Assembly (NCBI GenBank): GCA_964481225.1
Contig: CAYZTE010000003.1
Coordinates: 2,625 to 47,320, forward strand
Length of the DNA stretch: 44,696 nucleotides
Origin: an uncultured archaeon
Lineage (GTDB): Archaea; Asgardarchaeota; Lokiarchaeia; Sigyniarchaeales; SOKP01
Direction: 5' to 3'
The notes beneath the pieces were generated by a model that was not told the origin of the DNA, ran no database searches, and saw only the letters and a list, made by a program, of their open reading frames with translations. Positions within the stretch are counted from its first letter, which is position 1, and every line of letters starts with the position of its first letter. The translations under genes and the position numbers were made by a program. Shown one piece after another: positions 8,848 to 44,696 of the stretch.

Positions 8848-8895
8848 AAAATCTAAAATAACTGTTATATCAAAATTTAAGGATAACTTTAACAA

Positions 8896-11910: not shown

Positions 11911-11915
11911 GAGGT
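11910..11915 (+). promoter_or_regulatory. Shine-Dalgarno GGAGGT for the 1308-aa gene (TTG start)
   Basis: GGAGGT overlaps the stop codon of the upstream permease gene and lies 3 nt before TTG 11919. Confidence 0.5.
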
Positions 11916-11918
11916 AAG

Positions 11919-15845: not shown

Positions 15846-15874
15846 GAATGGTAAATAAATTAAAAAAATTATTT

Positions 15875-15882
15875 AGGAGAGG
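15875..15882 (+). promoter_or_regulatory. Shine-Dalgarno AGGAGAGG for the subtilase gene
   Basis: AGGAGAGG lies 6 nt before ATG 15889. Confidence 0.5.
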
Positions 15883-15888
15883 AAATCA

Positions 15889-18800
15889 ATGAAATTAAGA
15901 AAGCAGTTGAAAGTAATCTTAACTCTATTCAATGTACTGTTTTCATCTTCTATCTTAATTTTCAATAATTTTAATTCTTATGACTTTTCAATTGATAAAT
16001 TCGATCCTAAGCTCAAGGAAAAAAATCTTAAAAATTCAAATACTTTTCAAGAGGAAATTATTGTCTTTTTTAACAGATCATCCTATAATAACACTGTTAT
16101 TTCCCGATTTGAGTATTATGGCGGTACTATTAGAAAAGAATGGAACAACATGTTTAGTTCAACTTCAGGTTTTGGTGGAATAATCCCCACAGATGCAAAT
16201 AAAACATTATTTCAAAATGATTTTCCAGGTGCTTTGATAGAAAATGATGAAATCTTAGAAACTCAGATGAATTTTGCGTCTATTCAAACAGGAGCTTTTA
16301 ATTCAACTTGGTCTTTAAATGGGTATAAGGGTAATAGTAATTCTTCAATAGCAGTATTAGATACAGGAATAAATCCAAATCATGATTTTTTTCCTAATGG
16401 TTTTAATCCTTTAGATTTAAACGGAAATATTGTTGGGTGGCAAAACTTTATCGATGATTCTTCCATTTCTGATGATAATGGGCATGGGACTTTTGTATCA
16501 TCAATAATTTCTGGAACCGGAACAACTCCTTATAATTCGAATAATCCTTCAACAGTAAAGTTGTATGGCAACTACTCCCACTTAGAATTATTTGAAGAAT
16601 ATTCTGCTCCTAAAAACTATACTTTTAAAATATTCTCTTTTAATGTTTCAAAACCCAATTCACAAATTCTTATTAATTCATCATGGAATTGGAATGTGGG
16701 TGGAATAGATGGATTTTGGTTCGAATTATTTTATAATGATACGTTAATCAAATATTCTCACAACGTCAATCCAAACGAATATTATATTATAAATCATACA
16801 CTTATTCAAAATGAGGTTGGGATTTATGATTTATTCATAAAATATCACAAACAATTTCAAAGTAAGCCAGCTTTCTCGTTTAATACAACTGTTTCTTATT
16901 TCCCTGAGTTTTATGTCGAAAATTATAGCTATTTCACCGGGATCGCAAATGCTACTAAAATAGTAGCTTTTAAGATTTTAAATCAATCTGGTAAGGGTTA
17001 TTCTTCTGATTTGATATCTGCATTAGCAAGTGTAATTCAAAACAGAAGCAAATATCATATAATTAGTGTTTGTTTAAGTATTGGAACTTTAGGTGAAGAT
17101 GTAAAAGCTATAAACGCTGTAATCAATGAAGTCATAGAAAATGGAATCTTAGTTGTTATTGCTGCTGGAAATTCTGGTATTGAAGTGTCAGATGCATTAA
17201 ATAGGCTAGCGAAAAATAAGAATGCAATTGTTGTTGGAGCAATAAACGATAAAGATCAAGTTACTTCTTATAGCAGTATTGGTACGACCGTGAAAAATAT
17301 TATAAAACCAGATATTGTAGCTCCTGGTGGTAGCACATTACCTAACCATAGAACTATTGTTTCTGCAGGTCTTAAATCAGATGAAATCACATCATCTTAC
17401 GGCACATCGATTTCTACAGCTATAGTATCGGCAGCAATAAATCTTTTGATCGAAGCAAGGTGGAACGGTTGGGATCAGTGGAAGAATTTGAATCTTACAA
17501 AATGGGTCAAAATTATTAAAACTATTTTATTGATGACAGCATCAGAAACTAATCTTGATAGGGAGGATGACCCATCCACATTAGAAGATGAAAGTGATTA
17601 TTCACCAACATTCTCGTTAGCTCCTTTAACAACTGGTATTAAAGACATACACGAAGGCTATGGGAGAATAAATATTCAGGCTGCAATAGATGCTTTAACT
17701 AAAAAGATTGATGTAAATTCATCTATAAGCGATAACTTAATGAGTTCACGAGAAAATCCACTTGGAGCTCACGTATTTGCACGTCAAGTTTCCCTAACTG
17801 AAGATAAGCAGTATCTATTTAATTTATCTATAGCTAATGAAGATGCTGATTTTGATATGTTTTTATTTTCAAATGAATCAAATCAATATGGCGAACCAAT
17901 ATTATTGGAATCTTCAAGAAAATGGTATGGTGATTTCAATTATTTCTACTTTACGCCCAAAAAGAATCAAACTAACTGTATTGTTGTTGTAAAAGCAATT
18001 GATGGAAAAAGCTCATTCACTTTGAATCTCTCGACTGTTGAAAACAAATTGAAGCCAGAATTAGAGGTTCGTGAAATAAATTATGCGGGAGGATCCAAAA
18101 ATACTACAATTATGGGCTTGCAAGAATTTACAGGTAATAATCCAAAAAAGAACTATAGTATCGATAGTTATAGGTTTTATATTGAATATCATGATAATGA
18201 CACTTCAAATGTACCTCCACAAGAAGTATATGTATCAATTCTAGAGATTTCAAAGAATTACACTCTATACCAATTTTATCCTCCAGACATCACATACACG
18301 GATGGCGCCTTATTTGTAAGCAATTACATTCAATTTTCAAAACCTGGCGTGTATCATTATTTTTTTGTAGCCAGTGATGGAAAATTCCAAGCGAGATATC
18401 CTATCATTGGAACACTTAATATTACAATTGAATTCCCCACTGATAGCGTGCAATTTCCACATCATCATAGTTTTAACGATGGAATTGGCAATTGGACTTA
18501 TACTGGAACAGGCTGGGATCTATTACAACAGTCAAATATCAACGATAATCGTTCAAGAATTTATGGGAATTCATGGAGTGCATTGTATTTTGGCACATAT
18601 CACGACTATCCAATTAATTATACATATCAACCAATTAGAATAACTGAAGATCCTTTTCCCAATGGTTCTTTAACTAGTCCTTTATTTAATTTAACGCAAC
18701 TTAATGAAAATAAAACTCAACCTTTTGCCAAGTTTGGGTTAAGAGTGAGTATTAATGCTGGAGATTTCATATATTTGCAGATAAATTTAAATTGGACGGG

Positions 18801-20724: not shown

Positions 20725-20771
20725 AAAAAGTATATTAATTAAAATAAGCTTATATTTGATGAGTAAAAAGC

Positions 20772-23741
20772 ATGGATGTTCGAACTTTTCTGTATAAATT
20801 AAAGAAAAAAATAAATTTGCAATTCTTCAAGCATTCTTGGCTTGATTTCAAGCGGGATAAAGCAAAAGCCATATTTGGAATATCTGGAATTGCTATTTCA
20901 TTATTTTTATTGACGGCTATTGGAATGTTGAATGATACCGTGAATTATAACTATTTATTATACGTAACTTCAACCACAGGAAAATCAGACATCATGATTA
21001 CGAGCACCATTCAAACAGACATAACATTTGATCCTTTCTTTGATGAAGAATTAATAAATGATGAATTAAAGGATATTGATGGTGTAGAAGAATTATTCCC
21101 GCGCATAATGATGCTTGTAGAAGCATCTTCTTACAACATAAATACAAGTGGATTTTTAATTTTATATGGAATTGACTTTACAAAAGAAGCCACAAATGGT
21201 AATATAGGAGATTTAATAATAGTTGATGAGGAGGGTAAGGAAACAGGTGAAATTTACGAACAAGACCCTAATGATGGCGAATGCGTGATTCTTTGGAATG
21301 TTGCAGAAATATTAAACGTTTCTAAAGGAGATGTAATTCATCTAGAATATAATATCCATGAGTTAAATTTAACTGTGGTGGAAATTTGTGTTCAAGATCT
21401 TAAATTCATGCAATTTGAAAATGCTATAATTCTTGTAAATTTAAGTCAAGCCCAAACTTTTCTAAATAGGGAAGGATTAATTAATTTTATTGTTGGCACT
21501 ATTAATAATCCTAAATCTATATATGATGCTAGCAATTTAGACAGAACAACACGAAGACTTCGAAAAATAGGTGCCAGAATTCAAGAAAGGTTGGACTTAA
21601 ATGAATATACTGTAACTCTCCCAAAATTAGAAGAACTTGAAGAAGGAGAATTTTTATTAATAAGCGTAACCACTATTTTTTGGTTCATAATCATTATTTC
21701 AATGCTTATTACTGCAATTTTAATAAACAGTATACTTTCTACTTCAGCAGAAGAAAGAGTCAGAGAATTTGGGATAGTACGTGTAGTAGGAAGTAAAAAA
21801 ATTTATCCGGTGAAAATGGTGCTTTTTGAAGGTTTGTTGATGGGATTAATAGGATCTATTATTGGAATGATATCTGGGGTTTTATTAATTCAACCAATTG
21901 CTCGAAGTTTGTTTCATCTTTACAATTTTCAATTTGAGTTTTCTGATGTGGATTGGGTAATTCAACCCCAAACAATTATCATTACGTTTACAATTGGAAC
22001 CGCAGTTTCTCTAGGAGTAGCATTAATACCAGCTCTTAAAACAGCAAAAATGGATTTAATAAAATCCATTACTCCATTTCAGACTAAAGAGGAGGGATGG
22101 GAGATTAAAAAAGAGGGTAGTATGAATGTTAAAAGTTTTTTGATTGGGATAGCTATTGCTACGATAGGGATGATTGTTTTTATCTTACTGCCCAACATAA
22201 TGGTTACTGGTGATTTTATGGCAATAACATCGCTATTCATAGGTTTACTTGCTGCTATCTTGATAGGTTTAGTTTTTGCATCAGTTGGTATTGTTCCATT
22301 AGTTCAAAAAATATTTTTAGGAATTGTTTCCCCAACAATAAGAAAGTACAAGAATATCATAAGCATATCTTTAAAACGATATAGGAGGCGTAATACGAGC
22401 ACGGTTGTAATGTTTGCTATTAGTTTTTCCTTCATTTTCTTCATTACAAGTATAACAGAAATGGAATCTGAAAACATGGCACTTAATTTAACTTTTCAAT
22501 ATGGATCAGATTTAGTTTTAATGAACCAAGAATCAAATAATGAAGAAAATGCCCTAATTTTGGATATGGTTGATGAATTGAAAAGTTTACCTGGGATTGA
22601 CGAGATAGCTATTTCACTCCATAATACATTTGATTTACAAGCTACGTTGGCAACTATATTGGAAATTACTGAAGGTCAAGTAGGTTATAGTGGAACTGAA
22701 ACCGAAGAAATTATGATGGATATATTTCAATTCTTTGCTACTCAAGAAGAAACTAAATTTAGAATCACTGCAGGAGATTTAATGGATTTTGATGTAGTGA
22801 ATGCTAGCTTTATAGGTATTGAGGAAGATTTCGTTGATCTAATTGATAATAATTTATTAATTTGGAAGAGTGATGGCAGTAATACTAAATATTCTTTCGA
22901 TGAATTATTTACGCATAATAATACCTGCATCATCGCCAAATCAATTGCAAGTGTACTTGGTATTCAAGAAGTAGGTGAATATGTTCGAATTACTTTTTAT
23001 GATCCCCAAAGAAAGACTCAAGGTAATGTTACACTATTTAGAGTTGTGGGAATTTCAGGAGGGATTCCTGGATTTTACAATTTCAGGAGCAATGAACAAT
23101 CTGCATTTGGAGGTGGTGTAATGGTTTCATTAGATAATTACATGCGATTAATGAGGGTAAAAAATCCTGGAGAACCCAATATGATTGTTGATAAAGTTTT
23201 CATTAATTTGGTAGATAAGTCTGAAGAAAACATTAAAGAGACAAAAGAAGAAATTCGAAGGATGTATCAAGATAAGGATATCATAATTGATGATGCAATT
23301 TCAAAAATAAATTTCATAAAGGCTATGACGGAAAGACAAGGCTTCCTGATGGAACTGATTCTAACGTTTACAATCATGATTAGCATCTTTGGTCTTGTAA
23401 GTTCAATGTATGCAATAATGTTAGAACGGAAATTCGAAGTTGGGATATTGCGCTCAATGGGTTTGAAAACGAGAAACGTTCGAAATATGTTTTTAGTAGA
23501 AAGTCTAATAGTTTTACTATCTGCAGGTATCTTAGGAACAATTATTGGAACTTATACTGCTTATCTCATGGAAACCAATTTCGCCTTAATGACGGAAATG
23601 CCCGTCATTTTTGCCCTTCCCATGGATACCTTGCTCAGAGTATTCATAATTTCTATTTCAGTTGGAATTTTAGGAACTTACATAATTTTAATAAAATTAA
23701 GTCGCCAAACAATTATGGATGTGTTCCGAGAAACCTTTTAA
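20772..23741 (+). CDS. second ABC transporter permease with two FtsX/MacB-type domains
   Basis: 989 aa with the same topology as 8896..11910. The FtsX cores are EERVREFGIVRVVGSKKIYP... and ERKFEVGILRSMGLKTRNVRN.... The gene starts 47 nt after the protease gene. Confidence 0.85.
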   Translation: MDVRTFLYKLKKKINLQFFKHSWLDFKRDKAKAIFGISGIAISLFLLTAIGMLNDTVNYNYLLYVTSTTGKSDIMITSTIQTDITFDPFFDEELINDELKDIDGVEELFPRIMMLVEASSYNINTSGFLILYGIDFTKEATNGNIGDLIIVDEEGKETGEIYEQDPNDGECVILWNVAEILNVSKGDVIHLEYNIHELNLTVVEICVQDLKFMQFENAIILVNLSQAQTFLNREGLINFIVGTINNPKSIYDASNLDRTTRRLRKIGARIQERLDLNEYTVTLPKLEELEEGEFLLISVTTIFWFIIIISMLITAILINSILSTSAEERVREFGIVRVVGSKKIYPVKMVLFEGLLMGLIGSIIGMISGVLLIQPIARSLFHLYNFQFEFSDVDWVIQPQTIIITFTIGTAVSLGVALIPALKTAKMDLIKSITPFQTKEEGWEIKKEGSMNVKSFLIGIAIATIGMIVFILLPNIMVTGDFMAITSLFIGLLAAILIGLVFASVGIVPLVQKIFLGIVSPTIRKYKNIISISLKRYRRRNTSTVVMFAISFSFIFFITSITEMESENMALNLTFQYGSDLVLMNQESNNEENALILDMVDELKSLPGIDEIAISLHNTFDLQATLATILEITEGQVGYSGTETEEIMMDIFQFFATQEETKFRITAGDLMDFDVVNASFIGIEEDFVDLIDNNLLIWKSDGSNTKYSFDELFTHNNTCIIAKSIASVLGIQEVGEYVRITFYDPQRKTQGNVTLFRVVGISGGIPGFYNFRSNEQSAFGGGVMVSLDNYMRLMRVKNPGEPNMIVDKVFINLVDKSEENIKETKEEIRRMYQDKDIIIDDAISKINFIKAMTERQGFLMELILTFTIMISIFGLVSSMYAIMLERKFEVGILRSMGLKTRNVRNMFLVESLIVLLSAGILGTIIGTYTAYLMETNFALMTEMPVIFALPMDTLLRVFIISISVGILGTYIILIKLSRQTIMDVFRETF

Positions 23742-26663: not shown

Positions 26664-27251
26664 TTAAACATTTTTTTTTAGGAATGAAATCAATTTTTTC
26701 AATGCTTGTCCCCTGTGAGAAAAACTATTTTTTTCTTCCATTGAGAGCTCAGCAAAAGTTTTATCAGGAGTTTCATCTGGTATGAAAATAGGATCAAAAC
26801 CAAATCCTCCAGTACCTCTTATTGTTTTTGAAACTTTTCCTTTCACATTGCCTTCGAATAAAAAAACTTCTTCTAATGGTTTAAAGTATAAAGCGATTAT
26901 AGCTGAGAAATGAGCATTTGTAATATCATAATCATTAATTAGTTTCAATATTCCCTCATTACCGATTGTTTTTAACACGTAAGACGAGAAAGCCCCCGGA
27001 AATCCTTTAAGAGGGTCATCTACAAAAAAACCAGCATCTTCAATAAAAAAAGATCCATCTATTTTATCTTTTACACTATCTAATTTAAAAAGAGCAATAT
27101 CTTTTATGCTATCTGCTTGAATTTCAATTGTTTCAATATCTATTTGTTTTAAATCATAATTCACATTCTCTTTCGTGAAAAGATCTAAAACTTCATTAAA
27201 TTTATGAATGTTCCTAGTAACAAAATAAATTGTGCTTTCTTCCTTGTTCAT
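26664..27251 (-). CDS. non-canonical purine NTP pyrophosphatase (HAM1/RdgB/ITPase family)
   Basis: 195 aa with family motifs FVTRNIHKFNE (T-x-N-x-x-K), GFPGAFS, GGFGFDPIF and SHRGQAL at the C-terminus. Confidence 0.85.
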   Translation of the reverse strand: MNKEESTIYFVTRNIHKFNEVLDLFTKENVNYDLKQIDIETIEIQADSIKDIALFKLDSVKDKIDGSFFIEDAGFFVDDPLKGFPGAFSSYVLKTIGNEGILKLINDYDITNAHFSAIIALYFKPLEEVFLFEGNVKGKVSKTIRGTGGFGFDPIFIPDETPDKTFAELSMEEKNSFSHRGQALKKLISFLKKNV

Positions 27252-33075: not shown

Positions 33076-33280
33076 AATGAATGCTTCGAATTTAATAGAG
33101 AGAGAAAATTAATAAAGCTGCAGAATTACTTATAAATTCTAAGCATGCAATAGTGCTAACTGGAGCAGGCATCTCAACGGAATCTGGCATTCCGGATTTT
33201 AGAGGAGAAGGTGGAATTTGGGAAAAATATAAGCCAGAAATATATGGAAACATTCAAGCATCAATTCAATTTCTTGATTA
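33076..33280 (+). pseudogene. sirtuin (Sir2-family NAD-dependent deacylase) 5' fragment, frameshifted and truncated
   Basis: ATG 33076 ([10 protein letters not shown]) runs into TAA. The +1 frame from 33098 reads [44 protein letters not shown]...*, a close paralog of the N-terminus of the intact gene at 44447. It stops after ~60 aa, so the catalytic core is absent. Confidence 0.7.
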
Positions 33281-34384: not shown

Positions 34385-35534
34385 TTTACGAGAAATAGAC
34401 TTCATATAACTCAATGTAAATCTATTATTTAAATCTTTTTAAAAAAAATTTTATGAGTGCACGCTGAAAATTCTTGAAAGTGTCAAAAGAAGTGTTATGC
34501 GTGACCTGTTTACACAAGAACTTCCAAAACCACTCCATTGGATTTAAATCGGGGGTGTATGGCGGTAGAAAGAGAAGCTCAAGTTTTTCCTTGTTAACTT
34601 CCAAAAAGGGTTCTAACTCCTTAGAATGGTGCGCACGGGCATTGTCCAATATCAGGAGGATTTTCCCGGAGTTTATATATCTAGCAAGGAGTCCCTCTAA
34701 AAAGTGTTGGAAATGGGATGCCTTTAACGTGTCAGATAATGCCACGTGAACTTTTCCCGCCTGGGGCTCAACTGCACCAATGAGATGTTGTCGGTGCCGA
34801 TCACCGTAGGTTAAGATTTCGGGTTGTTGCCCTTTCAGCGACCACATACGAGTGATGGACGGCGAAAACTGGACACTCGCCTCGTCTTGGAAAAGAACTA
34901 CGCCATCTTCTCCGAGAGAATCCAGACTTTTTTAAAATCATTTAGGAATTCTTTTTGTTTCTCAATATCAGCCTTCGGAAACTTGTATCTCGGACGTTGG
35001 AGCGTAAATCCTAGCTCGTGAAGGAGTCTTTGCGCTTAGCGCACGCTTAATTCCACGCCAAATTTCTGTTTAATGTGATGCGACACACTCTTTCCTTCCC
35101 AGTTGCTAAATTCATACCCCAATTCACGAGGATGGGTTACCACATCCGTTTTTAACTTTTCTTTTTGTTCTTCAGAAAGGCTTGAGGGGCGCACTGGAGG
35201 TGTATTTGGAACGATGGCTTCTAATCCACCCTCATTAAACATCTTTACCAAAGTTTGTATCGTTCTACGAGATTTTTTTATGAGTTCTGCAACTATCGTG
35301 CAGTTCATAAACTCACGCATCAAAAAAAAAGCATGATATCGTTCTTTCAACTTAAAATATTTCTCTTTCTTATAGAGCTCGACCAGCTCATCGTGATCAG
35401 ACGAGCTCCTTGTTATTTTAAGTTTTTCCATGAATCTAAGAGCAAAAAATAGTCTTATTTAAGGGTGTGATATCCAAGTGATATCCAGAAAAAGACAAGT
35501 AAAGCATGAGAAATTATTTATGTCGTTATAAATA
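34385..35534 (-). mobile_element. IS630/Tc1-mariner-family insertion sequence, copy A (decayed)
   Basis: About 1.15 kb, homologous along its length to copy B. The right end tcgttataaata (35523-35534) equals the copy B terminal repeat. The left end is degraded (ggtttacga versus tatttataacga). It encodes an HTH plus DDE_3 transposase in pieces. Confidence 0.8.
34425..35431 (-). pseudogene. IS630-family DDE transposase, disrupted (in-frame TAA plus -1 frame break)
   Basis: The N-terminal HTH ORF 35036..35431 ends at a TAA where copy B has CAA (..ELSVR*AQRLLHELGF..). After ..NDFKKVWILSEKMA* the DDE domain continues in the -1 frame (EDGVVLFQDEAS..., LILDNARAHHS, LPPYTPDLNPMEWFW), giving a D-D-E triad with ~36-aa D-to-E spacing. 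Confidence 0.8.
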
Positions 35535-35653
35535 AATTAATTATGAATGCATAAAAATTAAATTATCCAAACCTAACTATTTTATTAATCTAGTTTTACG
35601 TTATTTTAGAGATTTCCTAAAAGAGGAAAAAATCAACAAAAAAAAAAGTTAGT

Positions 35654-38533
35654 GTGGGATATAATATGGAAATCTTTCTAAAAAGAGCTGAAAAAGCTTT
35701 TATCGCTAAAATTGACGAAGAAAAGACATATAGATATTTTGCAGATATCAAACCTGCTTTAAAGCTAATTCCTAGCCAATTTAGTAGAGATTTGGGATCA
35801 GAAATCCCTAGACTTCTATTTAAAATTTCACAAACATTGAGTGATAAATCATCTGAAGCGACTGAAGGAATTTTGAAGCATATTTTAATCTTTACTCAAG
35901 TAATGAGGGAATTAACAGATAATAGTAGAACTGAAATCCATCAAGTTATAATGAAGCAAAGCCAAAATCAATACCGAAGTTTATTAGACTTACTGATAAA
36001 ATTTGTCGAAAAAGCAGAAAAGGGAGAATTTTTAGAAAATGAAAGTAATTTTGAAAACATCCTTATACATGTATTAGGGGTAAAAACTCAAGTTACTGCA
36101 TTTAAAGACACAGATTTATTTATAAAACGAGCTGAAAAACAATTTTTTGGAAAAATAGGACAAACAAAAGCAATTGAATTTTCTGAAAATATTATTCTTT
36201 TTTTAAAGGAAATTGATGATGAAATTCAAAACTATATGAGTTCAGAAATAGCTAAATACTTATTCAAATTCTCTCAAAACATTAATGATTTAGCACCTAA
36301 GACTTTAGAAAGTGTCTTAAGGCATATTTTACTATTCATAAAGGCAATTTCTGATTTAGGCGGAAAAACTATAGTCCTAATAAATCAAGATATAATAAGA
36401 AGAAGTAAGAAAAAATTAAGAGGATTATTTGATTTATTTAAAGCGTTTTTGGAAGAGGTAAGAAATGGAAATGAAATTAAATCAGAAGAAATTACTTTAG
36501 AAGATATTATTAACTATGTTTGTGGATTTGAAGAGGAATATATTCAATTTACCGATATAGGAGGTTTCCTAAAACGAGCTGAAAAAATATATGCTGAAAA
36601 AATTAGTAAAGAGAAGGCTAGCTCTTATACAGAAGATATCTTAAAGCTAATACCAGAGATCCCTGATATACATAGAACTTATATTGGATCTGATGTTGGA
36701 AAATTTTTGCTTACTTATTCAGAAAAAATAAAATTGATTAAACCAGAAGAGATCGAACGAATACTTTCAAGTACAATTTCTTTTTTATATTCAATTAAAG
36801 AATTAGACCATCTTAACCAAGAAGAAGTAAATAAAACGATACTTTTTCATTCAAATCAAAAGGCACGCAATTTACTTGAACTTTATAAATTATTTTTGGA
36901 AAAGTGTAAAGAAACCATATTTAAAGTGAAAGAACCAACTTTTAATGATATCCTTCTTCATGCTTTTGGATTACAAATAAGTCCTAAGACAATAAAAGAA
37001 GCACCTCCAATTCATAAATTAATGATAAATTCTCATAAAGAATTTCTTATAGCACGAGACCATGAAAAATGGGGATCTGCTATCTTCAAGGCAATCCCGA
37101 GATATCTTGAAATTCTGCAAAACAAACAAGGAGATAAAATTTTAAATGAGTTATGGGATATGACATTTCCTATGGACCATATTATACCTAAATTTCAAGA
37201 TAAGCTAGCTCAATTACCGCGAACAGATGAAAAACCCTTTGTTTCTAAATTATTAAATTTATTATCTCAACAGATACTAATTGATGAGACTCTTGATCGC
37301 GCATTAACAGGATCAGTTGCATATATTATGCTTGCAAGAGTTTTTATTGAAATATTTAGTGGAAAAAACGCAACTATTCGTGCGCTTAAAATAAGAGACC
37401 ATTTAGAAGAAAGAAGGAAAGCAAGTATAGAAAGGAAAAATGATATTGATTATAATATACAAAAAATACTTGAGGAGGATTTTAAAGCTATATATCGGAA
37501 ATCATTTATCCTCAAAACAATTATGAGAATTGTTTCTAATAAAGAATATTTTATTAAAATAACTGATCTTATTGAAGAAGATTATCCTAAAGAACTTGTG
37601 GAAGTATATACATCTCAAAATGCAGTAAAAACTATTGGAAAAGATTATTTAGATTCATCTCTCTATGGTGAAATTGTAATTGCTCTTAAATTCTTTCTTA
37701 AACATCTTGATTATATAAAAAATTTTTATGATAATTTTATTCACGATTTTCTTACAATACCTCTTGATGCGAAAAGAAAATTAGAAATCTTAAAAGATTC
37801 TTTTATGGTTTTATTAGACTTAAGAGAAAATCTTGAACCAAATCAATTTTATTCTAAAAATGTGGAAATTGCTGAACATCAAGTCTATTTTTCTATAATA
37901 AAATATCTTTATGAGCCATTATTGGATATATTTAAAATAGTCTTTTCTTTTTTAGAACAGAAAGAAGAATCGTTTAAAATTGTATCTTTACCAAAGTATT
38001 TAAGTGATGAGAAATATGAAAATAATTTTAAACAGATTCAAGAGATTGAAAAAGAGATAAAAGAACATCTAAGCAAAGGTTTTAATCATGATTCGGATAA
38101 AATAAAATGGTTAAAAAACTCTCTTGAACATAGAAATGCAGATGTTTTAAATTTCCAATTAGTAAACAATCTTTTGATGAAAATTGAAGAAATTAAAGAG
38201 ATGTTTCTTGTTAGAATGGAGTTTAGTAAGACTATGATTAATTTTTTAATAGAGCTTAAGAAAGTTCATCGAAATCTCCCTGCTGCTTTCTCTCTATTTA
38301 TTGAAAATATAGATATGTTTGATAAAGAAATTGATAATTTTATAGAACAAATTAAAAATGTCCAGAATTTAGGATTTATATTACCTAGTGAATTTGAGAC
38401 TCGAAAGAAAAGAGGGATTGAAGCAAAGCAACAATTATACGGATTAAAATCAAACCAGATTTTTATAGAACAAATTAAGGTTTTGCAAGAAATAAATCAA
38501 AAGAATATTTTATTTAATGGATTTAAAAATTGA
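35654..38533 (+). CDS. large all-alpha hypothetical protein with three N-terminal ~149-aa tandem repeats
   Basis: 959-aa ORF (GTG 35654; ATG 35666 is also possible). I recognise no enzymatic motif. It is K/E/I/L-rich and predicted helical. Confidence 0.6.
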   Translation: MGYNMEIFLKRAEKAFIAKIDEEKTYRYFADIKPALKLIPSQFSRDLGSEIPRLLFKISQTLSDKSSEATEGILKHILIFTQVMRELTDNSRTEIHQVIMKQSQNQYRSLLDLLIKFVEKAEKGEFLENESNFENILIHVLGVKTQVTAFKDTDLFIKRAEKQFFGKIGQTKAIEFSENIILFLKEIDDEIQNYMSSEIAKYLFKFSQNINDLAPKTLESVLRHILLFIKAISDLGGKTIVLINQDIIRRSKKKLRGLFDLFKAFLEEVRNGNEIKSEEITLEDIINYVCGFEEEYIQFTDIGGFLKRAEKIYAEKISKEKASSYTEDILKLIPEIPDIHRTYIGSDVGKFLLTYSEKIKLIKPEEIERILSSTISFLYSIKELDHLNQEEVNKTILFHSNQKARNLLELYKLFLEKCKETIFKVKEPTFNDILLHAFGLQISPKTIKEAPPIHKLMINSHKEFLIARDHEKWGSAIFKAIPRYLEILQNKQGDKILNELWDMTFPMDHIIPKFQDKLAQLPRTDEKPFVSKLLNLLSQQILIDETLDRALTGSVAYIMLARVFIEIFSGKNATIRALKIRDHLEERRKASIERKNDIDYNIQKILEEDFKAIYRKSFILKTIMRIVSNKEYFIKITDLIEEDYPKELVEVYTSQNAVKTIGKDYLDSSLYGEIVIALKFFLKHLDYIKNFYDNFIHDFLTIPLDAKRKLEILKDSFMVLLDLRENLEPNQFYSKNVEIAEHQVYFSIIKYLYEPLLDIFKIVFSFLEQKEESFKIVSLPKYLSDEKYENNFKQIQEIEKEIKEHLSKGFNHDSDKIKWLKNSLEHRNADVLNFQLVNNLLMKIEEIKEMFLVRMEFSKTMINFLIELKKVHRNLPAAFSLFIENIDMFDKEIDNFIEQIKNVQNLGFILPSEFETRKKRGIEAKQQLYGLKSNQIFIEQIKVLQEINQKNILFNGFKN
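35675..37018 (+). repeat. three in-frame ~447-nt (149-aa) tandem repeats inside the 959-aa ORF
   Basis: Repeat units start at residues F8, F156 and F305, each opening F[LI]KRAEK. Shared blocks are ...KYLFKFSQ/RLLFKISQ/KFLLTYSE..., ...L[KR]HIL[IL]F..., ...LLDLLIKFVEK/LFDLFKAFLEE/LLELYKLFLEK... and ...ILIHVLG/IINYVCG/ILLHAFG. A degenerate fourth unit may follow at ~456. Confidence 0.7.
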
Positions 38534-39335: not shown

Positions 39336-41810
39336 TCATTTATATATATGGACACCTCTCCTCTCTAAAATTTTTAACGACTCTGGGAGGGTTGTTAACT
39401 TGTTATCAACTAAACCAAGTGTATGGAGCGAGGTGAGGTTCCCTATGGACTCTGGGAGAATAGTTAAGTGATTGCTTCCTAACAATAGTGTTTTAAGCGA
39501 TTTTAGGTTGCTTATAGACTCAGGGAGAGTTGTTAACTTATTATCTCTCAAATATAGTATTTGGAGCGATGTAAGCTTTGTTATGGGCTCTGGGAGAGTC
39601 GTTAACTTGTTATCATTAATACTAAGTGTTTCGAGCGATGTAAGCTTTGTTATGGACTCAGGGAGAGTTGTTAGCTTATTATCACTTAAACTAAGTGTTT
39701 GAAGCGAGGAGAGGTTCCCTATGGACTCAGGGAGAGTCGTTAACTGATTGCTTCCTAACAATAGTGTTTTAAGCGAATTAAGGTTGCCTATCGACTCTGG
39801 GAGCGCGGTTAACTGATTATTCACCAAACTAAAACCATTGAGCGAGGAGAGGTTCCCTATGGACTCTGGGAGAGTCGTTAACTGATTGTCTTTCAAATTA
39901 AGATATGTGAGTGATTTTAGGTTCGATATTGATTCTGGGAGAATTGATATACCACAATCATGTAGACCAATCCCTATAATTTGATTGTTTTCAACTGAAA
40001 AGCCCATCTTAGTATTCCTTTCGACTTTATTAACTACATTAAATTTTTTACCGCATTGATCTTCAAGCTCTTGAAGAAAATCCGCTTGAAATTGAGGGAT
40101 TTGAACACCTTTAAAATTAATAATTTCCAAAATTTGATTTAGAATAATTTTTGAAATTTGATTTAAAATTTTAGGAAGATCTTCATGTTCCTCATACCAG
40201 ATTACATTTATACCAAATCGTAAATAGGATATTTCTTTTAAATTATAATACATCCTTAAGAAATTTTCAACATATGATTCATTACCATATCCATCACTTA
40301 TATCCCCCCCAAAAAAAATTTTTTTATCAATTCTTTTAAGAAAAACATAATGGGGTAAAATATTGGATTTATTTATTAGATATTGAAACCTTTTAACTCT
40401 TTTAAACAATAGACGACGTAAGTTTGGATCTTTTATCGAAAGGCCTATTAGTAAGCAATTATTATTTCCAAAGAATTTTAATTGAATTTTATTATTCCAT
40501 AAGGAATTATATTCAAATAAAGTAAAATAACCAATTTCAGATAGAATGATTTTACTATCAGGATTTTCCAAAAAACCATGGACGTGAAAAATATTAAATC
40601 TATATTCATCTGGATTATTTTTATAGTCCTCATAAGAAATTTCATCAGATATAATTTTAACGGAATTATAATCACTTTTAATTTTTTCAAAAATAGTTTT
40701 ATCGTAATCATAATTAATGATTTTGTTAATTCCAATACCACAAAGATTTGATAGAGTTTCAATTAATTCTGAATACACTATAGGTCTCTCATATAATTTT
40801 TGTTTTATAAGATCCTGGAATACTTCCTTAAAGTTATCCTTAAATATTTCCTCAATAGCAGACTGAATAAATTCTGCCTCAAATAAAGGATTATCTGACT
40901 CTTGCGTATGAATCCTTTTTGCAAAAAATTCTATACTAGCTGAATCTAAATCTGTTTTATAGCTCTCTACTACTTTAATCATTAGACCTTCTAAAAGTTT
41001 ATTCCAATCAGGAAGATTAGCATTCATAGATACTCCTGCTCCTAAACATAAAACTAAATCTCTAGGATTTTTTTTTTTAATTTCCTTTAATAAACATTCT
41101 TGAATATTTCTCGATTCTATCTCTTCTTTTTTAGGATCTCCGCAATAAACTCTCTTGAATGCCATTTGTAAAAAAAACTTTGAATACATAGAAATATATT
41201 TGATATAATCTAATGTTTTAAAAAGAAATTGATTCAGATCCCAAACTTCAAATTTAGATCTATCATGCAATATTGAGATTAAATCTCCTAATTCGGATCT
41301 AAATTTTTCTTTCATTCCTTCTCTAGAATCCTCCTCTAAAAATATTAGATCAATTACTAATATGTTATCAACTTGATAGGAGTTAGGAAAGTCTAAGTAA
41401 AACTCGGGGTGAAAGTAGAAGGACTCAGGGCTTTTTATTAAAATAAGAGTTTGACCAAGAGAATCTAATAATCCCTCACATATTATTACAGATTTATCAT
41501 GAAATTCAACCTTTTTATTATGGGAAACACAATAATAAAAAATAATTGTTTTAATTATATTTTCAAATATCATAGTAATATATATATAAATTTCCTTCTC
41601 TTTAAGACCGCTATGCATTTCTAAGAGAGTTTGATACCTCTGTTTAAAATCACTATCCTTTTCTAGGAGAGTTTCAAACATCCTTTTAAGATCATTATCC
41701 TTTTTCCAAAGAATTTCAAACCTCTCCTTAATATCTTTTATACCTTTTTTAAAAAGATCTCCATAAAACTTCCAATTTATGTTTTCTTCACTTATCTTTT
41801 TATCTGGCAT
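39336..41810 (-). CDS. SIR2_2-family (defence-type SIR2-like NADase) domain protein fused to C-terminal leucine-rich repeats
   Basis: 824 aa. The SIR2_2 hallmark blocks are DLVLCLGAGVSMNANLPDWNKLL (251-273), INKIINYDYD (361-370, putative catalytic Asn367), FNIFHVHGF (405-413, putative His411) and NNCLLIGLSIKDPNLRRLL (449-467). The C-terminus has eight 23-aa LRRs (LPESIGNLxSLxxLxLxxNxLTT, 620-805) plus a cap. The N-terminal 235 aa are unassigned. No Walker A is present. Confidence 0.85.
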   Translation of the reverse strand: MPDKKISEENINWKFYGDLFKKGIKDIKERFEILWKKDNDLKRMFETLLEKDSDFKQRYQTLLEMHSGLKEKEIYIYITMIFENIIKTIIFYYCVSHNKKVEFHDKSVIICEGLLDSLGQTLILIKSPESFYFHPEFYLDFPNSYQVDNILVIDLIFLEEDSREGMKEKFRSELGDLISILHDRSKFEVWDLNQFLFKTLDYIKYISMYSKFFLQMAFKRVYCGDPKKEEIESRNIQECLLKEIKKKNPRDLVLCLGAGVSMNANLPDWNKLLEGLMIKVVESYKTDLDSASIEFFAKRIHTQESDNPLFEAEFIQSAIEEIFKDNFKEVFQDLIKQKLYERPIVYSELIETLSNLCGIGINKIINYDYDKTIFEKIKSDYNSVKIISDEISYEDYKNNPDEYRFNIFHVHGFLENPDSKIILSEIGYFTLFEYNSLWNNKIQLKFFGNNNCLLIGLSIKDPNLRRLLFKRVKRFQYLINKSNILPHYVFLKRIDKKIFFGGDISDGYGNESYVENFLRMYYNLKEISYLRFGINVIWYEEHEDLPKILNQISKIILNQILEIINFKGVQIPQFQADFLQELEDQCGKKFNVVNKVERNTKMGFSVENNQIIGIGLHDCGISILPESISNLKSLTYLNLKDNQLTTLPESIGNLSSLNGFSLVNNQLTALPESIGNLNSLKTLLLGSNQLTTLPESIGNLSSLQTLSLSDNKLTTLPESITKLTSLETLSINDNKLTTLPEPITKLTSLQILYLRDNKLTTLPESISNLKSLKTLLLGSNHLTILPESIGNLTSLHTLGLVDNKLTTLPESLKILERRGVHIYK
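39366..39992 (-). repeat. 69-nt periodic coding repeats (8 LRR units plus cap)
   Basis: Recurrent strings on the + strand such as ggactctgggagagtcgttaac / ggactcagggagagttgttag recur every 69 nt. They are in frame with the 824-aa ORF. Confidence 0.85.
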
Positions 41811-42823: not shown

Positions 42824-43033
42824 ATGAAAAAATGTGAGATTTGTCAGAAAGAATATGAAGAAAATGCTATTATTCCTTTTCGATTAAAAATTAGTCCAAG
42901 ATTAGGAAGAATAGGGGAGTCAATAGATTCTGATTATGTTAAACCAATAGACGTGAATGTTTGCGATCATTGTAAGGAAAGCAGAAAAGCAAAAATTATT
43001 AATAATTTTAAAAGCTTATTACCGTCAAAGTAA
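42824..43033 (+). CDS. small CxxC...CxxC Zn-ribbon-like hypothetical protein
   Basis: 69-aa ORF, MKKCEICQKEYE...VNVCDHCKESRK. It is short and abuts the IS copy B terminus, so coding status is uncertain. Confidence 0.35.
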   Translation: MKKCEICQKEYEENAIIPFRLKISPRLGRIGESIDSDYVKPIDVNVCDHCKESRKAKIINNFKSLLPSK

Positions 43034-43087: not shown

Positions 43088-44252
43088 TATTTATAACGAC
43101 GGAATTAAATTCGCAAAATTACATCGTGTTTTAATTTCTAATGATGGAAATTTAAATTTTTTTATAAATTTTATGAGCGCACGCTGAAACTTCTTGAAAG
43201 TGTCAAGGAAAGTGTTGTGCGTGACTTGTTTGCGTAAAAATTTCCAGAACCACTCCATTGGATTTAAATCGGGAGAATATGGAGGTAAAAAGAGAAGTTC
43301 GAGCCTGTCCTTGTCTGCATCCAAAAATGGCTCCAACTCCTTGGAATGGTACGCTCGAGCGTTGTCTAAGATTAAGAGGATTTTCCCTGAGTTCCTATAC
43401 CTGGTAAGGAGTCCTTCTAAAAAGTGTTGGAAATGAAAACCTTTTAACGCGTCAGAAAAAGCCACGTGAACTTTTCCAGCAAGGGGTTCAACTGCACCTA
43501 TTAGAGTTTGCCGTTGCCGACCGCCGTAGGTTAAGATTTCGGGCTGTTGCCCCTTCAACGACCACATACGAGTGATCGATGGTGAAAACTGAATGTTCGC
43601 CTCATCTTGGAAAAGAACTATGTCATTTTCTCCGAGAGAGTCCAGACTTTTTTAAAATCGTTTAAAAATTCCTTTTGTTTTTCAGGATCGGCTTTCGGAA
43701 AGGCATATCTTGGGTGTTGTAGCGTAAATCCTATTTCATGAAGGAGTCTCTGTGCTTGGCGAACGCTTAATTCCACGTTAAATTTCTGTTTAATGTGGTG
43801 CGCCACACTCTTCCCTTCCCAGTCGCCTAATTCATACCCTAATTCACGAGGGTGCGTTAACACATCCGCTTTTAACGATTCTTTTTGTTCTTCAGAAAGG
43901 CTTGAGGGACGCCCTGGAGGTGAATTTGGTGCGATAGTTTCTAATCCTCCTTCATTAAAGACCTTTATCTAGGTTTGAATCGTTTTTAGAGATCTTTTTA
44001 TCAGTTCTGCGACTATCGTGCAATTCACGAACTCGTGCATTAAAAATAAAGCGTGATATCCTTTTTCAGCTTAGGATTTTTTTCCTTTTTGTACAGCTCG
44101 ACCAGTTCGTCATGATCAGGTGATTTCCTTGTTATTTGAAGTTTTTCCATGAATTTAAGGGCAAAGAAAATCCTTATTTAAGGGTGTGATATCCAGGTGA
44201 TATGAAGGAAAAAGACTTAAAGCTTGTGTAATTATTTATATCGTTATAAATA
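43088..44252 (-). mobile_element. IS630/Tc1-mariner-family insertion sequence, copy B (decayed)
   Basis: A perfect 12-bp terminal inverted repeat tatttataacga (43088-43099) pairs with tcgttataaata (44241-44252). The outermost TA on each side is compatible with the TA target duplication typical of IS630. The transposase stop codon lies inside the left repeat. Confidence 0.8.
43091..44150 (-). pseudogene. IS630-family DDE transposase, disrupted (frameshift and TAG in the HTH region plus the shared -1 frame break)
   Basis: The N-terminus MEKLQITRKSPDHDELVELYKKEKNPKLKK then shifts frame relative to copy A. An in-frame TAG sits where copy A has TTG (..TIQT*IKVFNEGG..). The middle ORF 43618..43863 and the DDE ORF 43091..43567 (LFQDEAN in -1 frame, LILDNARAYHS, LPPYSPDLNPMEWFW) are in different frames. 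Confidence 0.8.
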
Positions 44253-44446
44253 AAATTCTAGATATTTTTTCTTCTTAGATTTATTTATTTACTTGAAGCA
44301 TATTTCATATTTTTTGAGAAACTTTCTTTAAGACTTAAATAATAAATCATAATAAAAATTTAAAAAAGTGAAACGGTATTATTTAATTTTAAATTTTATT
44401 AGAATTATTACCCTTCAGAAGTTAAATATTAATCATCAACTTGAAA

Positions 44447-44696
44447 ATGCATAGATTAAAACCTTCAAATAAAGAGAAAATAAGAAAAGCAGCTAAATTG
44501 CTTCTTAATTCAAAACATGCAATAGTGTTAACTGGAGCAGGAATTTCAACAGAATCTGGAATTCCAGATTTTAGAGGGGATGATGGCATTTGGAAGAAAT
44601 ACCCTATTGAAACATTTGGTACGTTGAAAAGTCTCCTCGCTGATCCGTCTAAATTTTGGAAAATGGCGCAGGAATTTGCTCCGACGCTGTTTAATG
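44447..44696 (+). CDS. Sir2-family NAD-dependent protein deacylase (sirtuin), N-terminal part; continues beyond window
   Basis: The frame is open from ATG 44447 to the window end. [52 protein letters not shown] contains the canonical sirtuin GAGIS[10 protein letters not shown] NAD-binding motif. Confidence 0.85.

What the first reader, a model, noticed from the sequence alone, without database searches (positions are those of the whole stretch)
39336..41810. SIR2_2 NADase-type domain fused directly to an LRR array with no NTPase: candidate single-protein archaeal immune sensor-effector
Seen in the sequence: the central domain (about residues 235-545, nt 40176-41108) carries all four hallmark blocks of the defence-associated SIR2-like family (Pfam SIR2_2). 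The blocks are DLVLCLGAGVSMNANLPDWNKLL, INKIINYDYD (Asn367), FNIFHVHGF (His411) and NNCLLIGLSIKDPNLRRLL, so the putative catalytic Asn and His are intact. The C-terminus is eight very regular 23-aa LRRs (LPESIGNLxSLxxLxLxxNxLTT) plus a cap. These are preceded by a small linker module (QADFLQELEDQCGKKF..GFSVENNQIIGIGLHDCG). The N-terminal 235 aa are unassigned and begin with three ~14-aa repeats (RFEILWKKDNDLK / RMFETLLEKDSDFKQ / RYQTLLEMHSGLKEK). There is no Walker A/B, so this is not a STAND/NLR. Established: SIR2_2 domains are NAD+-depleting abortive-infection effectors in Thoeris ThsA, DSR1/DSR2, SIR2-HerA, SIR2-APAZ/short pAgo and some Avs-type STAND proteins. LRRs are the classic ligand sensors of eukaryotic TLRs and NLRs, whereas the sensor domains I recall from prokaryotic defence proteins are TPR, WD40 or HEAT-like. 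Inference: this is a direct LRR-sensor to SIR2-effector protein, analogous in logic to TIR/SARM1-type NADase immunity. It sits in an IS-flanked accessory island of an archaeon. I am not aware of this architecture as a described defence system.
Basis: partly seen in the sequence, partly recalled or inferred. Interest (0 to 1): 0.85.

Follow-up and report, generated by a model that had tools for sequence, protein, structure and literature searches.

The report
Lokiarchaeal SIR2 NADase fused to LRRs
An Asgard (Lokiarchaeum-type) archaeon encodes a defence-type SIR2 NAD-degrading domain joined directly to a leucine-rich-repeat cassette with no NTPase switch, a rare and apparently undescribed variant of known sensor-effector immune proteins, but this particular copy has a mutation at a key catalytic residue.

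Summary
The 824-aa ORF (39336-41810, minus strand) is real. It has a SIR2_2 domain above Pfam threshold, closest to KomC, FAM118B and ThsA, and eight regular 23-aa LRRs. It has no P-loop. The catalytic claim is wrong: 'Asn367' is Tyr. The family-invariant catalytic-motif Asn (FAM118B N163) aligns with residue 368, which is Asp in this copy only. It is Asn in 120 of 121 relatives and in all other orthologs; His411 is intact. The 'linker' is the N-cap of a self-contained LRR cassette. In other proteins, mostly from Asgard archaea, that cassette is attached to TIR_2, Roc-COR, U-box/RING or HEAT domains. The N-terminus is a degenerate PD-(D/E)xK-like domain shared with a ~500-aa SIR2 family. In that SIR2 clade the direct LRR fusion occurs only in near-identical Lokiarchaeum-like genomes (one is GC14_75, public since 2015). 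One relative is LRR-Roc-COR-SIR2. IS630-like flanks are specific to this genome; one ortholog lies among metabolic genes. Best reading: an NTPase-less LRR-sensor/SIR2-NADase protein with DSR2-like logic, probably attenuated in this allele. It is a new variant of a known kind. Function is inferred, not shown.

The parts
39336..41810 (-). Whole SIR2-LRR ORF, 824 aa (the stop codon is 39336-39338)
41595..41723 (-). Lineage-specific N-terminal extension with three ~14-aa repeats (res 30-72). Predicted helical, with low confidence.
   Evidence: Absent from P0002-P0004.
41211..41603 (-). N-terminal alpha-beta-beta-beta-alpha-beta domain (res ~70-200). It is homologous to the N-domain of the ~500-aa SIR2 family and is probably a degenerate PD-(D/E)xK (Mrr_cat-like) fold, with S107/L124/K126 in place of D/E/K.
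   Evidence: (only weak REase fold hits)
40131..41078 (-). SIR2_2 / SIRim-type domain (res ~245-560), with GAGVS loop, HVHG and DPNLRR motifs
40707..40709 (-). Codon 368, GAT (Asp), at the family-invariant catalytic-motif Asn position. Orthologs have AAT (Asn).
40578..40580 (-). Codon 411, the catalytic His (aligns with KomC H146). Invariant in the family.
39951..40118 (-).
39390..39950 (-). LRR array (res 621-807): one irregular repeat plus the regular 23-aa repeats (the eighth continues into the C-cap), SHOC2/Leptospira-LRR-like
39339..39389 (-). LRR cassette C-cap, LPESLKILERRGVHIYK
35654..38533 (+). Convergent 959-aa ORF, co-inherited with SIR2-LRR in a ~7-kb block. It belongs to a ~950-aa family found across Asgard MAGs, with no Pfam, PADLOC or PDB match. 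A functional link is unresolved.
34427..35536 (-). IS630-like copy A (HTH + DDE_3 ORF fragments)
43150..44254 (-). IS630-like copy B (HTH_33 + DDE_3 ORF fragments), direct and 83% identical to copy A

Best explanation
This is a cytosolic, stand-alone, three-module protein restricted to a narrow Lokiarchaeum-like lineage. The modules are a degenerate restriction-endonuclease-like N-domain, a SIRim-type SIR2 NAD+ hydrolase, and a self-contained LRR cassette (N-cap, about 9 repeats, C-cap).

The most likely mechanism is inferred, not shown. The LRR solenoid binds a protein ligand, such as a viral or mobile-element component or a modified host protein. Binding relieves autoinhibition or drives oligomerisation or filament formation of the SIR2 domain, as happens in ThsA, Avs5, KomBC and FAM118B. 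The SIR2 domain then consumes NAD+ and arrests the infected cell. No NTPase switch is involved.

The fusion probably arose when the mobile LRR cassette was grafted onto the C-terminus of a pre-existing REase-like+SIR2 protein.

The allele in this window carries N368D at the invariant catalytic-motif Asn. It is therefore probably attenuated or inactive, while the orthologous alleles keep Asn.
For: Shown:
- The SIR2_2 match exceeds the Pfam threshold, and the ThsA SIR2 profile also matches.
- Sequence hits to KomC, FAM118B and ThsA.
- Fold matches to BcThsA (E 5.5e-11) and KomC (target TM-score 0.82), from a model with pLDDT >90 in the SIR2 core.
- The G257/G259/S261, H411 and DPNLR motifs are invariant.
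- H146A in KomC and N163A/H206A in FAM118B abolish activity. Filament formation is required in ThsA, Avs5 and FAM118.
- There is no P-loop.
- The LRR cassette with the same N-cap and C-cap is attached to TIR_2 in P0122, P0132 and P0127 (58-66% identity for P0122/P0132). Swapping effectors on a constant repeat chassis is a recognised conflict-system signature.
- P0377 couples LRR-Roc-COR to the same SIR2 clade.
- The gene is lineage-restricted. It is absent next to homologs of the 950-aa gene in other Asgard genomes.
- It is under purifying selection overall, with dN/dS 0.31.
- Relatives of the REase-like+SIR2 family sit beside Piwi/NurA/HerA and in a Klebsiella plasmid cargo region with TA, antirestriction and WYL genes.
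- N368D is established.
Against: - There is no experimental evidence for NADase activity or for defence.
- The ortholog in L073 lies among metabolic genes, with no defence genes or IS nearby; L001 shows no recognisable defence genes or IS either.
- Bacterial family members P0010 and P0027 are solitary genes among metabolic genes.
- The same LRR cassette is also fused to Roc-COR, U-box/RING and HEAT domains, which are signalling modules rather than classical effectors.
- Differences among orthologs are not enriched on the concave LRR face (8 of 36, p=0.54), so there is no arms-race signature.
- PADLOC recognises no system, only the SIR2 domain.
- pTM is 0.57, so the inter-domain arrangement is unknown.
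- The effect of Asn to Asp, as opposed to Asn to Ala, has not been tested anywhere I could find.
Confidence: 0.5

Rival explanations
1. It is a non-immune signalling or regulatory enzyme. The LRR cassette would be a general protein-docking scaffold of the Asgard eukaryote-like signalling network (SHOC2/Rsu1/Roco-type). The SIR2 domain would act as an NAD-dependent protein-modifying or NAD-signal-generating output, not as an abortive-infection effector.
For: - The cassette is fused to Roc-COR, U-box, RING and HEAT domains in sister proteins.
- The best LRR fold matches are SHOC2, Rsu1 and Roco scaffolds.
- The L073 ortholog sits in a chromosomal context among metabolic genes; L001 shows no recognisable defence genes nearby.
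- There is no diversifying signal on the concave face.
Against: - The SIR2 belongs to the SIR2_2/SIRim branch. Its nearest structurally characterised relatives (KomC, FAM118B, ThsA) are NADases acting in immunity, not deacylases.
- The sister fusion partner TIR_2 is also an immune NADase-type domain.
- The gene is lineage-restricted rather than conserved.
Confidence: 0.2
2. The copy in this window is a disabled allele, a pseudo-enzyme or a gene on its way to decay. N368D would have removed a toxic activity in a genome where IS630 elements have rearranged the locus.
For: - Asp at 368 is unique among 121 family members. It occurs only in the window protein and in an identical fragment, while 8 of 10 cluster members have Asn.
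- N163A at the equivalent FAM118B residue abolishes NAD processing.
- IS630-like copies flank the block only in this genome.
- The spacer ORF of 214 aa is missing here.
Against: - The ORF is intact over 824 codons, and all other motifs are preserved.
- Asp is a conservative replacement that could still stabilise an oxocarbenium-like transition state (inference).
- A sequencing or consensus artefact in a metagenome assembly cannot be excluded, although the allele is seen in more than one assembly record.
Confidence: 0.35
3. It is a two-gene system in which the convergent 959-aa protein is a functional partner (sensor, regulator or antitoxin-like) of SIR2-LRR.
For: - The ~7-kb block holding both genes is shared at 92-97% nucleotide identity among three genomes whose flanks differ on both sides. 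The block ends coincide in the comparisons with L001; the window-L073 match extends ~345 bp further upstream of SIR2-LRR.
- The 959-aa copy belongs to a divergent paralog subgroup of its family.
Against: - The genes are convergent, so they are not an operon. The spacer between them is variable.
- The ~950-aa family is spread across Asgard MAGs, has at least two paralogs per genome, and other members lie in metabolic contexts without SIR2 or LRR genes.
- It has no PADLOC, Pfam, PHROG or PDB match.
Confidence: 0.1

Closest known systems
DSR2 / DSR1 (single-protein SIR2 defence systems)
   Same: They are single polypeptides with a SIR2_2 NADase joined directly to a large repeat or solenoid sensor and no NTPase. 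Their logic is ligand binding leading to NAD+ depletion (own knowledge; Garb et al. 2022 is cited). The PADLOC Dsr1 profile touches the SIR2 region at E=2e-4.
   Different: In DSR1/2 the SIR2 is N-terminal and the sensor is a long helical (HEAT-like) region. Here the SIR2 is central, is preceded by a REase-like domain, and the sensor is a canonical 23-aa LRR cassette. There is no homology outside the SIR2 domain.
Thoeris ThsA
   Same: It is the best PADLOC profile hit (2e-14) and a strong fold match for the SIR2 domain. It is activated by oligomerisation.
   Different: This protein has no SLOG or Macro ligand-binding domain, and no ThsB/TIR partner gene was found. The match covers only profile positions 77-280 of 478.
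Kongming KomC and human FAM118B (SIRim / SIRanc)
   Same: These are the closest solved structures by sequence (E 3e-9 and 4e-7) and KomC is also a close fold match (target TM-score 0.82). They share the GAGVS, NxD and HG motifs and are filament-dependent NADases.
   Different: They are SIR2-only proteins of ~260-350 aa, and KomC needs KomA/KomB. No adjacent KomB-like gene exists here: the window's Ham1-like gene is 12 kb away beside ribosomal genes. The Asn equivalent to FAM118B N163 is Asp here.
SIR2-STAND proteins (Avs5; bacterial NACHT proteins with SIR2 effectors or LRR sensors such as bNACHT16)
   Same: They combine an effector with a repeat sensor, and both SIR2 and LRR occur in this repertoire.
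   Different: They are defined by a central STAND NTPase, which is absent here.
Roco proteins (LRR-Roc-COR-output), including P0377 = LRR-Roc-COR-A-COR-B-SIR2_2
   Same: They have the same type of LRR, and P0377 has the same SIR2 clade as its output domain (31-35% identity).
   Different: This protein has no Roc GTPase or COR domain. The domain order is reversed, with SIR2 before the LRR.
~500-aa REase-like+SIR2 family ('SIR2 family protein'; some members carry Mrr_N)
   Same: The N-domain and SIR2 are homologous over ~80% of residues 1-590 (P0002 at 34% identity). This is the evident ancestor of the N-terminal two-thirds.
   Different: In nearly all of the best 150 matches the protein ends about where the SIR2 domain ends, and none has LRRs. 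Most keep a D...ExK motif that is lost here.
LRR-cassette proteins (TIR_2-LRR, U-box-LRR, LRR-Roc-COR, HEAT-LRR), mostly from Asgard MAGs
   Same: They have the same N-cap, repeat type and C-cap at 50-66% identity.
   Different: Their partner domains differ. None in the list carries SIR2, but that list appeared to be limited to proteins of 462 aa or less.

Membership tests
SIR2_2 / SIRim (defence-type SIR2-like NADase domain) | Profile match to PF13289 above the gathering threshold | tested here: met
   45.4 bits against a cutoff of 24.5, E=1.1e-11
SIR2_2 / SIRim | Rossmann NAD-binding glycine loop (GAGVS) and the DPNLRR block | tested here: met
   G257, G259, S261, D461, P462, N463 and R465 are invariant in 121 sequences and present here
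SIR2_2 / SIRim | Catalytic His (KomC H146, FAM118B H206) | tested here: met
   H411 aligns with KomC H146 and is invariant in the family
SIR2_2 / SIRim | Catalytic-motif Asn (FAM118B N163; conserved in SIRT2 and ThsA) | tested here: not met
   D368 in the window copy. It is N in 120 of 121 relatives and in all other orthologs.
SIR2_2 / SIRim | SIR2 fold similar to solved defence SIR2 structures | tested here: met
   Foldseek: BcThsA 8btp E 5.5e-11; KomC 9xvc target TM-score 0.82
SIR2_2 / SIRim | NAD+ hydrolase activity | not testable with these tools
   Needs biochemistry
Thoeris (ThsA/ThsB) | C-terminal SLOG or Macro signal-binding domain on ThsA | tested here: not met
   The PADLOC ThsA match covers only the SIR2 part (77-280 of 478). 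The C-terminus is LRR.
Thoeris (ThsA/ThsB) | Adjacent TIR-domain ThsB gene | tested here: not met
   No TIR hit in neighbouring ORFs. The upstream 1.2 kb holds only short ORFs.
DSR1/DSR2 | N-terminal SIR2 followed by the long family-specific helical sensor region | tested here: not met
   The Dsr1 profile matches at E=2e-4 only over positions 16-220 of 1248. The C-terminus is LRR.
STAND / NLR-like (Avs, bNACHT) | Central P-loop STAND NTPase (NACHT / NB-ARC) | tested here: not met
   No Walker A motif, no P-loop Pfam hit, and no such domain in the model
Roco | Roc GTPase plus COR domains | tested here: not met
   Absent here but present in relative P0377
Kongming (KomABC) | Adjacent KomA and KomB (HAM1-type NTP pyrophosphatase) genes | tested here: not met
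   The only Ham1-like gene (26664-27251) is 12 kb away next to ribosomal protein genes. It is not part of the block shared with the orthologs.
LRR cassette (N-cap + LRR + C-cap) seen mainly in Asgard proteins | Conserved N-cap (F[KR]GxQIPxxE..L..LE...GK.F..V....MGFSVEN..I.GIGL) and C-cap (LPESIKILExRGVxIYK) | tested here: met
   Aligned with 9 cassette proteins at 49-62% identity
PD-(D/E)xK / Mrr_cat-like nuclease fold (N-domain) | An alpha-beta-beta-beta-alpha-beta core with D...(D/E)xK residues | tested here: inconclusive
   The topology fits. The family has D in 97/106, E in 62/103 and K in 54/103. Mrr_N occurs upstream in some members, and Mrr_cat matches weakly at E=0.04 in P0328. The best Foldseek hit is only E=0.036, to the EcoT38I REase. 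The window protein has S107 and L124.

The most novel reading that the evidence does not exclude
Asgard archaea may carry a family of NTPase-less cytosolic LRR receptors in which one portable LRR cassette is combined with interchangeable NAD+-cleaving immune effectors (SIR2 here, TIR_2 in sister proteins). Other partners are ubiquitin-ligase and GTPase outputs. If so, direct coupling of LRR-based ligand recognition to TIR/SIR2 NADase signalling, the logic of TLR/SARM1 and TIR-type plant immunity, already existed in the archaeal relatives of eukaryotes.
Probability: 0.3. Interest if true: 0.8.

Novelty: new variant of a known kind. Interest (0 to 1): 0.6.

Why it matters
Every characterised SIR2 immune effector is controlled in one of three ways: by a helical sensor (DSR), by a small-molecule-binding domain (ThsA, KomBC), or by a partner protein or NTPase (pAgo, HerA, Avs5).

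An LRR wired directly to a SIRim domain would add the classic eukaryotic pattern-recognition module to that list, and would do so in an Asgard archaeon.

Together with the TIR_2-LRR sister proteins, it gives a small, testable set of proteins. They could show whether prokaryotic LRRs sense invaders without an NTPase switch, and whether such modules relate to the origin of eukaryotic LRR/TIR/SIRim immunity.

The natural N368D allele is a ready-made control.

Tried and rejected
- **Thoeris, DSR, STAND or Kongming member:** rejected on defining features.
- **Walker A regex and P-loop Pfam hits:** none found.
- **The 959-aa neighbour as a known defence protein:** no PADLOC, Pfam, PHROG or PDB-profile hit. 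I first read it as a housekeeping gene from L063/L064. I tempered that after seeing paralogs and the co-mobile block, and the question is left unresolved.
- **Diversifying selection on the LRR concave face:** not supported (8/36, p=0.54). The 10-fold higher dS in the LRR (0.34 vs 0.03) is more simply explained by repeat-level recombination.
- **N-domain fold:** a separate AF2 model and Foldseek search gave only sub-significant REase hits.
- **TIR-LRR cousins in reference genomes:** the search with TIR+N-cap of P0122 found nothing, so their taxonomy is not established. L065 has 33% GC.
- ** limitation:** the list appeared to be limited to proteins of about 1.75x the query length or less, so it could not reveal long fusions. 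I compensated.
- **tRNA, Rfam and promoter/terminator scans:** uninformative.
Full report
**1. The object.**
An ATG-initiated ORF of 824 codons occupies 39336-41810 on the minus strand. The window has ~30% GC. It encodes archaeal/eukaryotic-type ribosomal proteins S3Ae and S13/S15. The S3Ae protein is 65-81% identical to those of Promethearchaeota, Hermod-, Hod- and Thorarchaeota MAGs. The 90%-identity cluster of the ORF's product contains KKK41251.1 from Candidatus Lokiarchaeum sp. GC14_75, named only 'leucine-rich repeat domain protein', and several LCGC14 (Loki's Castle) sediment fragments. The host is therefore a Lokiarchaeum-like Asgard archaeon, and the sequence has been public since the first Lokiarchaeote MAG.

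**2. Domain claims.**
- SIR2: Pfam gives SIR2_2 at 45.4 bits (cutoff 24.5), and PADLOC gives the ThsA SIR2 region at 2e-14 and Dsr1 at 2e-4, both over the SIR2 part only.
- LRR: Pfam gives strong LRR_8/LRR_14/LRR_4 matches. NCBIfam hits are LRR-only and far below their cutoffs.
- The nearest solved structures by sequence are KomC of the Kongming system, human FAM118B and ThsA.
- An AlphaFold2 model built on 121 homologs has mean pLDDT 82, with >90 in the SIR2 core and about 88 in the LRRs.
- Its SIR2 part matches BcThsA, EcThsA and KomC (target TM-score up to 0.82). Its LRR part matches Leptospira LRR proteins, SHOC2, Rsu1, XopL and the Roco LRR.
- There is no Walker A motif, no P-loop profile hit, and no room for an NTPase domain in the model.
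- Eight regular 23-aa repeats start at residue 634.
- The three N-terminal ~14-aa repeats are well above chance. They lie in a low-confidence, lineage-specific helical extension.

**3. The catalytic residues.**
The sequence reads N366-Y367-D368-Y369-D370.
- In the phmmer alignments, the N of the KomC 'NYD' motif and the N of the FAM118B 'TTNFD' motif both pair with D368. The FAM118B residue is chain residue 136, which I take to be N163 on an inferred chain offset of 27.
- In a 121-sequence family alignment, column 368 is Asn in 120 sequences and Asp only in the window protein.
- The 93-96% identical ortholog P0001 has AAT where the window has GAT. A third ortholog, in MAG SRP179991_co3_105, also reads INYNYD.
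- Of ten cluster members covering the site, eight have Asn. Only the window protein and an identical 503-aa fragment have Asp.
- FAM118B N163A abolishes NAD processing, and the residue is described as conserved in SIRT2 and ThsA.
- H411 aligns with KomC H146, whose H146A mutation abolishes defence and activity. It is invariant in the family.
- This allele is therefore probably catalytically compromised. The effect of Asn to Asp specifically is unknown.

**4. What the other parts are.**
- The 'linker module' is the N-terminal cap of a discrete LRR cassette. A search with residues 561-824 returned many proteins of 350-460 aa that cover 95-99% of the query, N-cap and C-cap included, at up to 66% identity. 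Among those that carry an organism name, most are Lokiarchaeota, Thorarchaeota or Promethearchaeota.
- Pfam scans and an alignment show the cassette in several combinations:
  - behind TIR_2 (P0122, P0132, P0127);
  - in front of TIR_2 (P0150, P0165);
  - in front of Roc-COR (P0184);
  - behind a U-box (P0197).
- By precomputed Pfam, the cassette also occurs with RING and HEAT domains.
- Residues 1-590 are homologous to a large family of ~500-aa 'SIR2 family proteins', some with an extra Mrr_N.
- The shared N-domain has an alpha-beta-beta-beta-alpha-beta core. Its D...ExK pattern is kept in most members: D in 97/106, E in 62/103, K in 54/103. The window protein has S107 and L124 at the acidic positions.
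- Foldseek gives only weak hits for this domain, but they are mostly restriction endonucleases (best E=0.036). P0328 gives weak Mrr_cat/PDDEXK_10 hits.
- I regard a degenerate PD-(D/E)xK fold as likely but unproven.

**5. How rare is the fusion?**
- I ran an exhaustive phmmer search with SIR2 plus N-cap (residues 235-618) against 1.84 billion cluster representatives. It found 1,379 relatives at E<=1e-3 and 621 at E<=1e-10.
- In the best 150, no match extends past query position ~324, so none carries the N-cap. In nearly all of them the SIR2 domain ends at about the protein's C-terminus.
- One exception in architecture is P0377, which is LRR-Roc-COR-A-COR-B-SIR2_2 with the same SIR2 clade. It comes from a 3.2-kb metagenome contig.
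- tblastn of the full protein against 72,556 plasmids and 50,697 phage records found no locus covering both halves.
- The direct fusion was found only in near-identical Lokiarchaeum-like sequences.
- Independent SIR2-LRR fusions in more distant SIR2 clades are not excluded.

**6. Context.**
- In the window, two direct IS630-like copies (83% identical, with transposase in fragments) bracket a block holding a 959-aa ORF and the SIR2-LRR gene, which are convergent.
- The same block recurs at 92-97% nucleotide identity in L001 and L073, where it carries an extra 214-aa coiled-coil ORF in the spacer.
- The flanks on both sides differ among all three genomes. The block ends coincide in the window-L001 and L073-L001 comparisons; the window-L073 match runs ~345 bp further upstream.
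- L073 shows molybdopterin/Fer4/FdhD and radical-SAM genes upstream, with no IS and no recognisable defence gene.
- The 959-aa protein belongs to a well-conserved family that is widespread in Asgard MAGs, has at least two paralogs per genome, and has no match in Pfam, PADLOC, PHROGs or PDB sequences. Distant members lie in metabolic neighbourhoods without SIR2 or LRR genes.
- The 'IS-flanked accessory island' therefore describes this genome only.
- SIR2-LRR itself is accessory in the sense of being lineage-restricted. Whether the 959-aa gene is a partner is unresolved.
- Relatives of the REase-like+SIR2 family show mixed contexts: beside Piwi/NurA/HerA, in a Klebsiella plasmid cargo region with TA, antirestriction, WYL and helicase genes, or solitary among metabolic genes.

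**7. Evolutionary signals.**
- Between the window and P0001, dN/dS is 0.31 overall, so the gene is maintained.
- dS is 0.34 in the LRR array against 0.03 elsewhere.
- Variable sites among three orthologs are not enriched at the concave x positions (8/36, p=0.54).
- The extra divergence therefore looks like recombination among repeats rather than targeted diversification.

**8. Mechanism and comparison.**
- The SIR2 branch, its nearest solved relatives and the TIR_2 sister fusions all point to an NAD+-cleaving effector.
- In ThsA, Avs5, KomBC and FAM118B, activity depends on higher-order assembly.
- The most economical model is LRR-ligand binding that permits SIR2 assembly and NAD+ depletion without an NTPase. 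This is the logic of DSR2, a SIR2 plus repeat sensor with no NTPase (own knowledge), with an LRR in place of a helical sensor.
- It is not a member of Thoeris, DSR, STAND/Avs, Roco or Kongming, because a defining feature of each was tested and not met (see the membership table).
- LRR sensors and SIR2 effectors are both already known in bacterial NACHT proteins. Effector swapping on a constant repeat chassis is an established conflict-system signature.
- Surveys of Asgard defence and of SIRim proteins do not mention LRR fusions. No paper in the library uses 'SIR2-LRR' or 'LRR-SIR2'.

**9. Verdict.**
It remains inferential, and three things weaken it: the ordinary chromosomal contexts of the orthologs, the signalling-type partners of the same cassette, and the N368D change in this copy. 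I rate it a new variant of a known kind, with interest 0.6.

Noticed in passing
window 35654-38533 (+); L001 6822-9689; L073 13841-16708: A 959-aa protein with three internal ~150-aa repeats (each starting FLKRAEK...). It belongs to a length-conserved (~950 aa) family widespread in Asgard MAGs, with at least two paralogs per genome and no Pfam, PADLOC, PHROG or PDB match. It travels with SIR2-LRR in a ~7-kb block found in three different flanking contexts.
   Followed up: partly
L074 88-2859 (protein P0377): An LRR-Roc-COR-A-COR-B-SIR2_2 protein of 923 aa, a Roco-type GTPase with a SIRim-type SIR2 output domain. It comes from a metagenome contig of unknown taxon. Its SIR2 resembles a Methanococcoides protein (P0117).
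   Followed up: partly
proteins P0122, P0132, P0127 (L065 144-1298); P0150, P0165 (L066 925-2298): TIR_2 domains fused directly to the same LRR cassette, in both orders (TIR-LRR and LRR-TIR) and with no NTPase. The taxonomic origin of the TIR-bearing proteins is not established.
   Followed up: partly
protein P0125 (alignment A3, columns ~500-600): It contains two complete LRR cassettes in tandem. A second N-cap follows the first C-cap, which underlines that the cassette is a discrete duplicable unit.
   Followed up: no
L002 5547-7157 and 10503-15157: A SIR2-only relative (P0004, 536 aa) lies ~3 kb from a Piwi-domain protein, which is followed by NurA-like and DUF87/HerA-like genes (assembly GCA_964525635.1).
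   Followed up: no
window 34427-35536 and 43150-44254; also 33101-33229 vs 44473-44601: Two direct IS630-like copies, 83% identical. Each has its HTH and DDE_3 parts in separate ORFs, from either a frameshift or decay. A further 129-bp repeat pair lies outside them.
   Followed up: partly
window 26664-27251 (-): A Ham1/ITPase-family gene, the same enzyme family as Kongming KomB, lies next to the ribosomal protein genes S15 and S3Ae. It is 12 kb from the SIR2 gene and outside the block shared with the orthologs, so I judge it coincidental.
   Followed up: partly
window 7669-23741 (+): A cluster made of an ABC ATPase, two ~1000-aa FtsX/MacB-type permeases, and giant 1308-aa and 1611-aa proteins. 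The 1308-aa protein has DUF11/CARDB-type Ig-like domains that also hit TRAP_beta (E=7e-12).
   Followed up: no
window 42824-43033 (+): A 69-aa ORF with two CxxC pairs (zinc-ribbon-like), between SIR2-LRR and IS copy B. It has no family match.
   Followed up: no
window 39339-39950 vs 39951-41810: The LRR part has higher GC (~33% vs ~25%) and 10-fold higher synonymous divergence between orthologs than the rest of the gene.
   Followed up: partly
L075 7440-8954 (Klebsiella plasmid NZ_CP129856.1): A ~500-aa member of the REase-like+SIR2 family sits between a WYL-domain gene/antirestriction/RadC/CbtA-YeeU cluster and a 1425-aa hypothetical protein plus a DEAD-box helicase. This may be an uncharacterised defence locus.
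   Followed up: no
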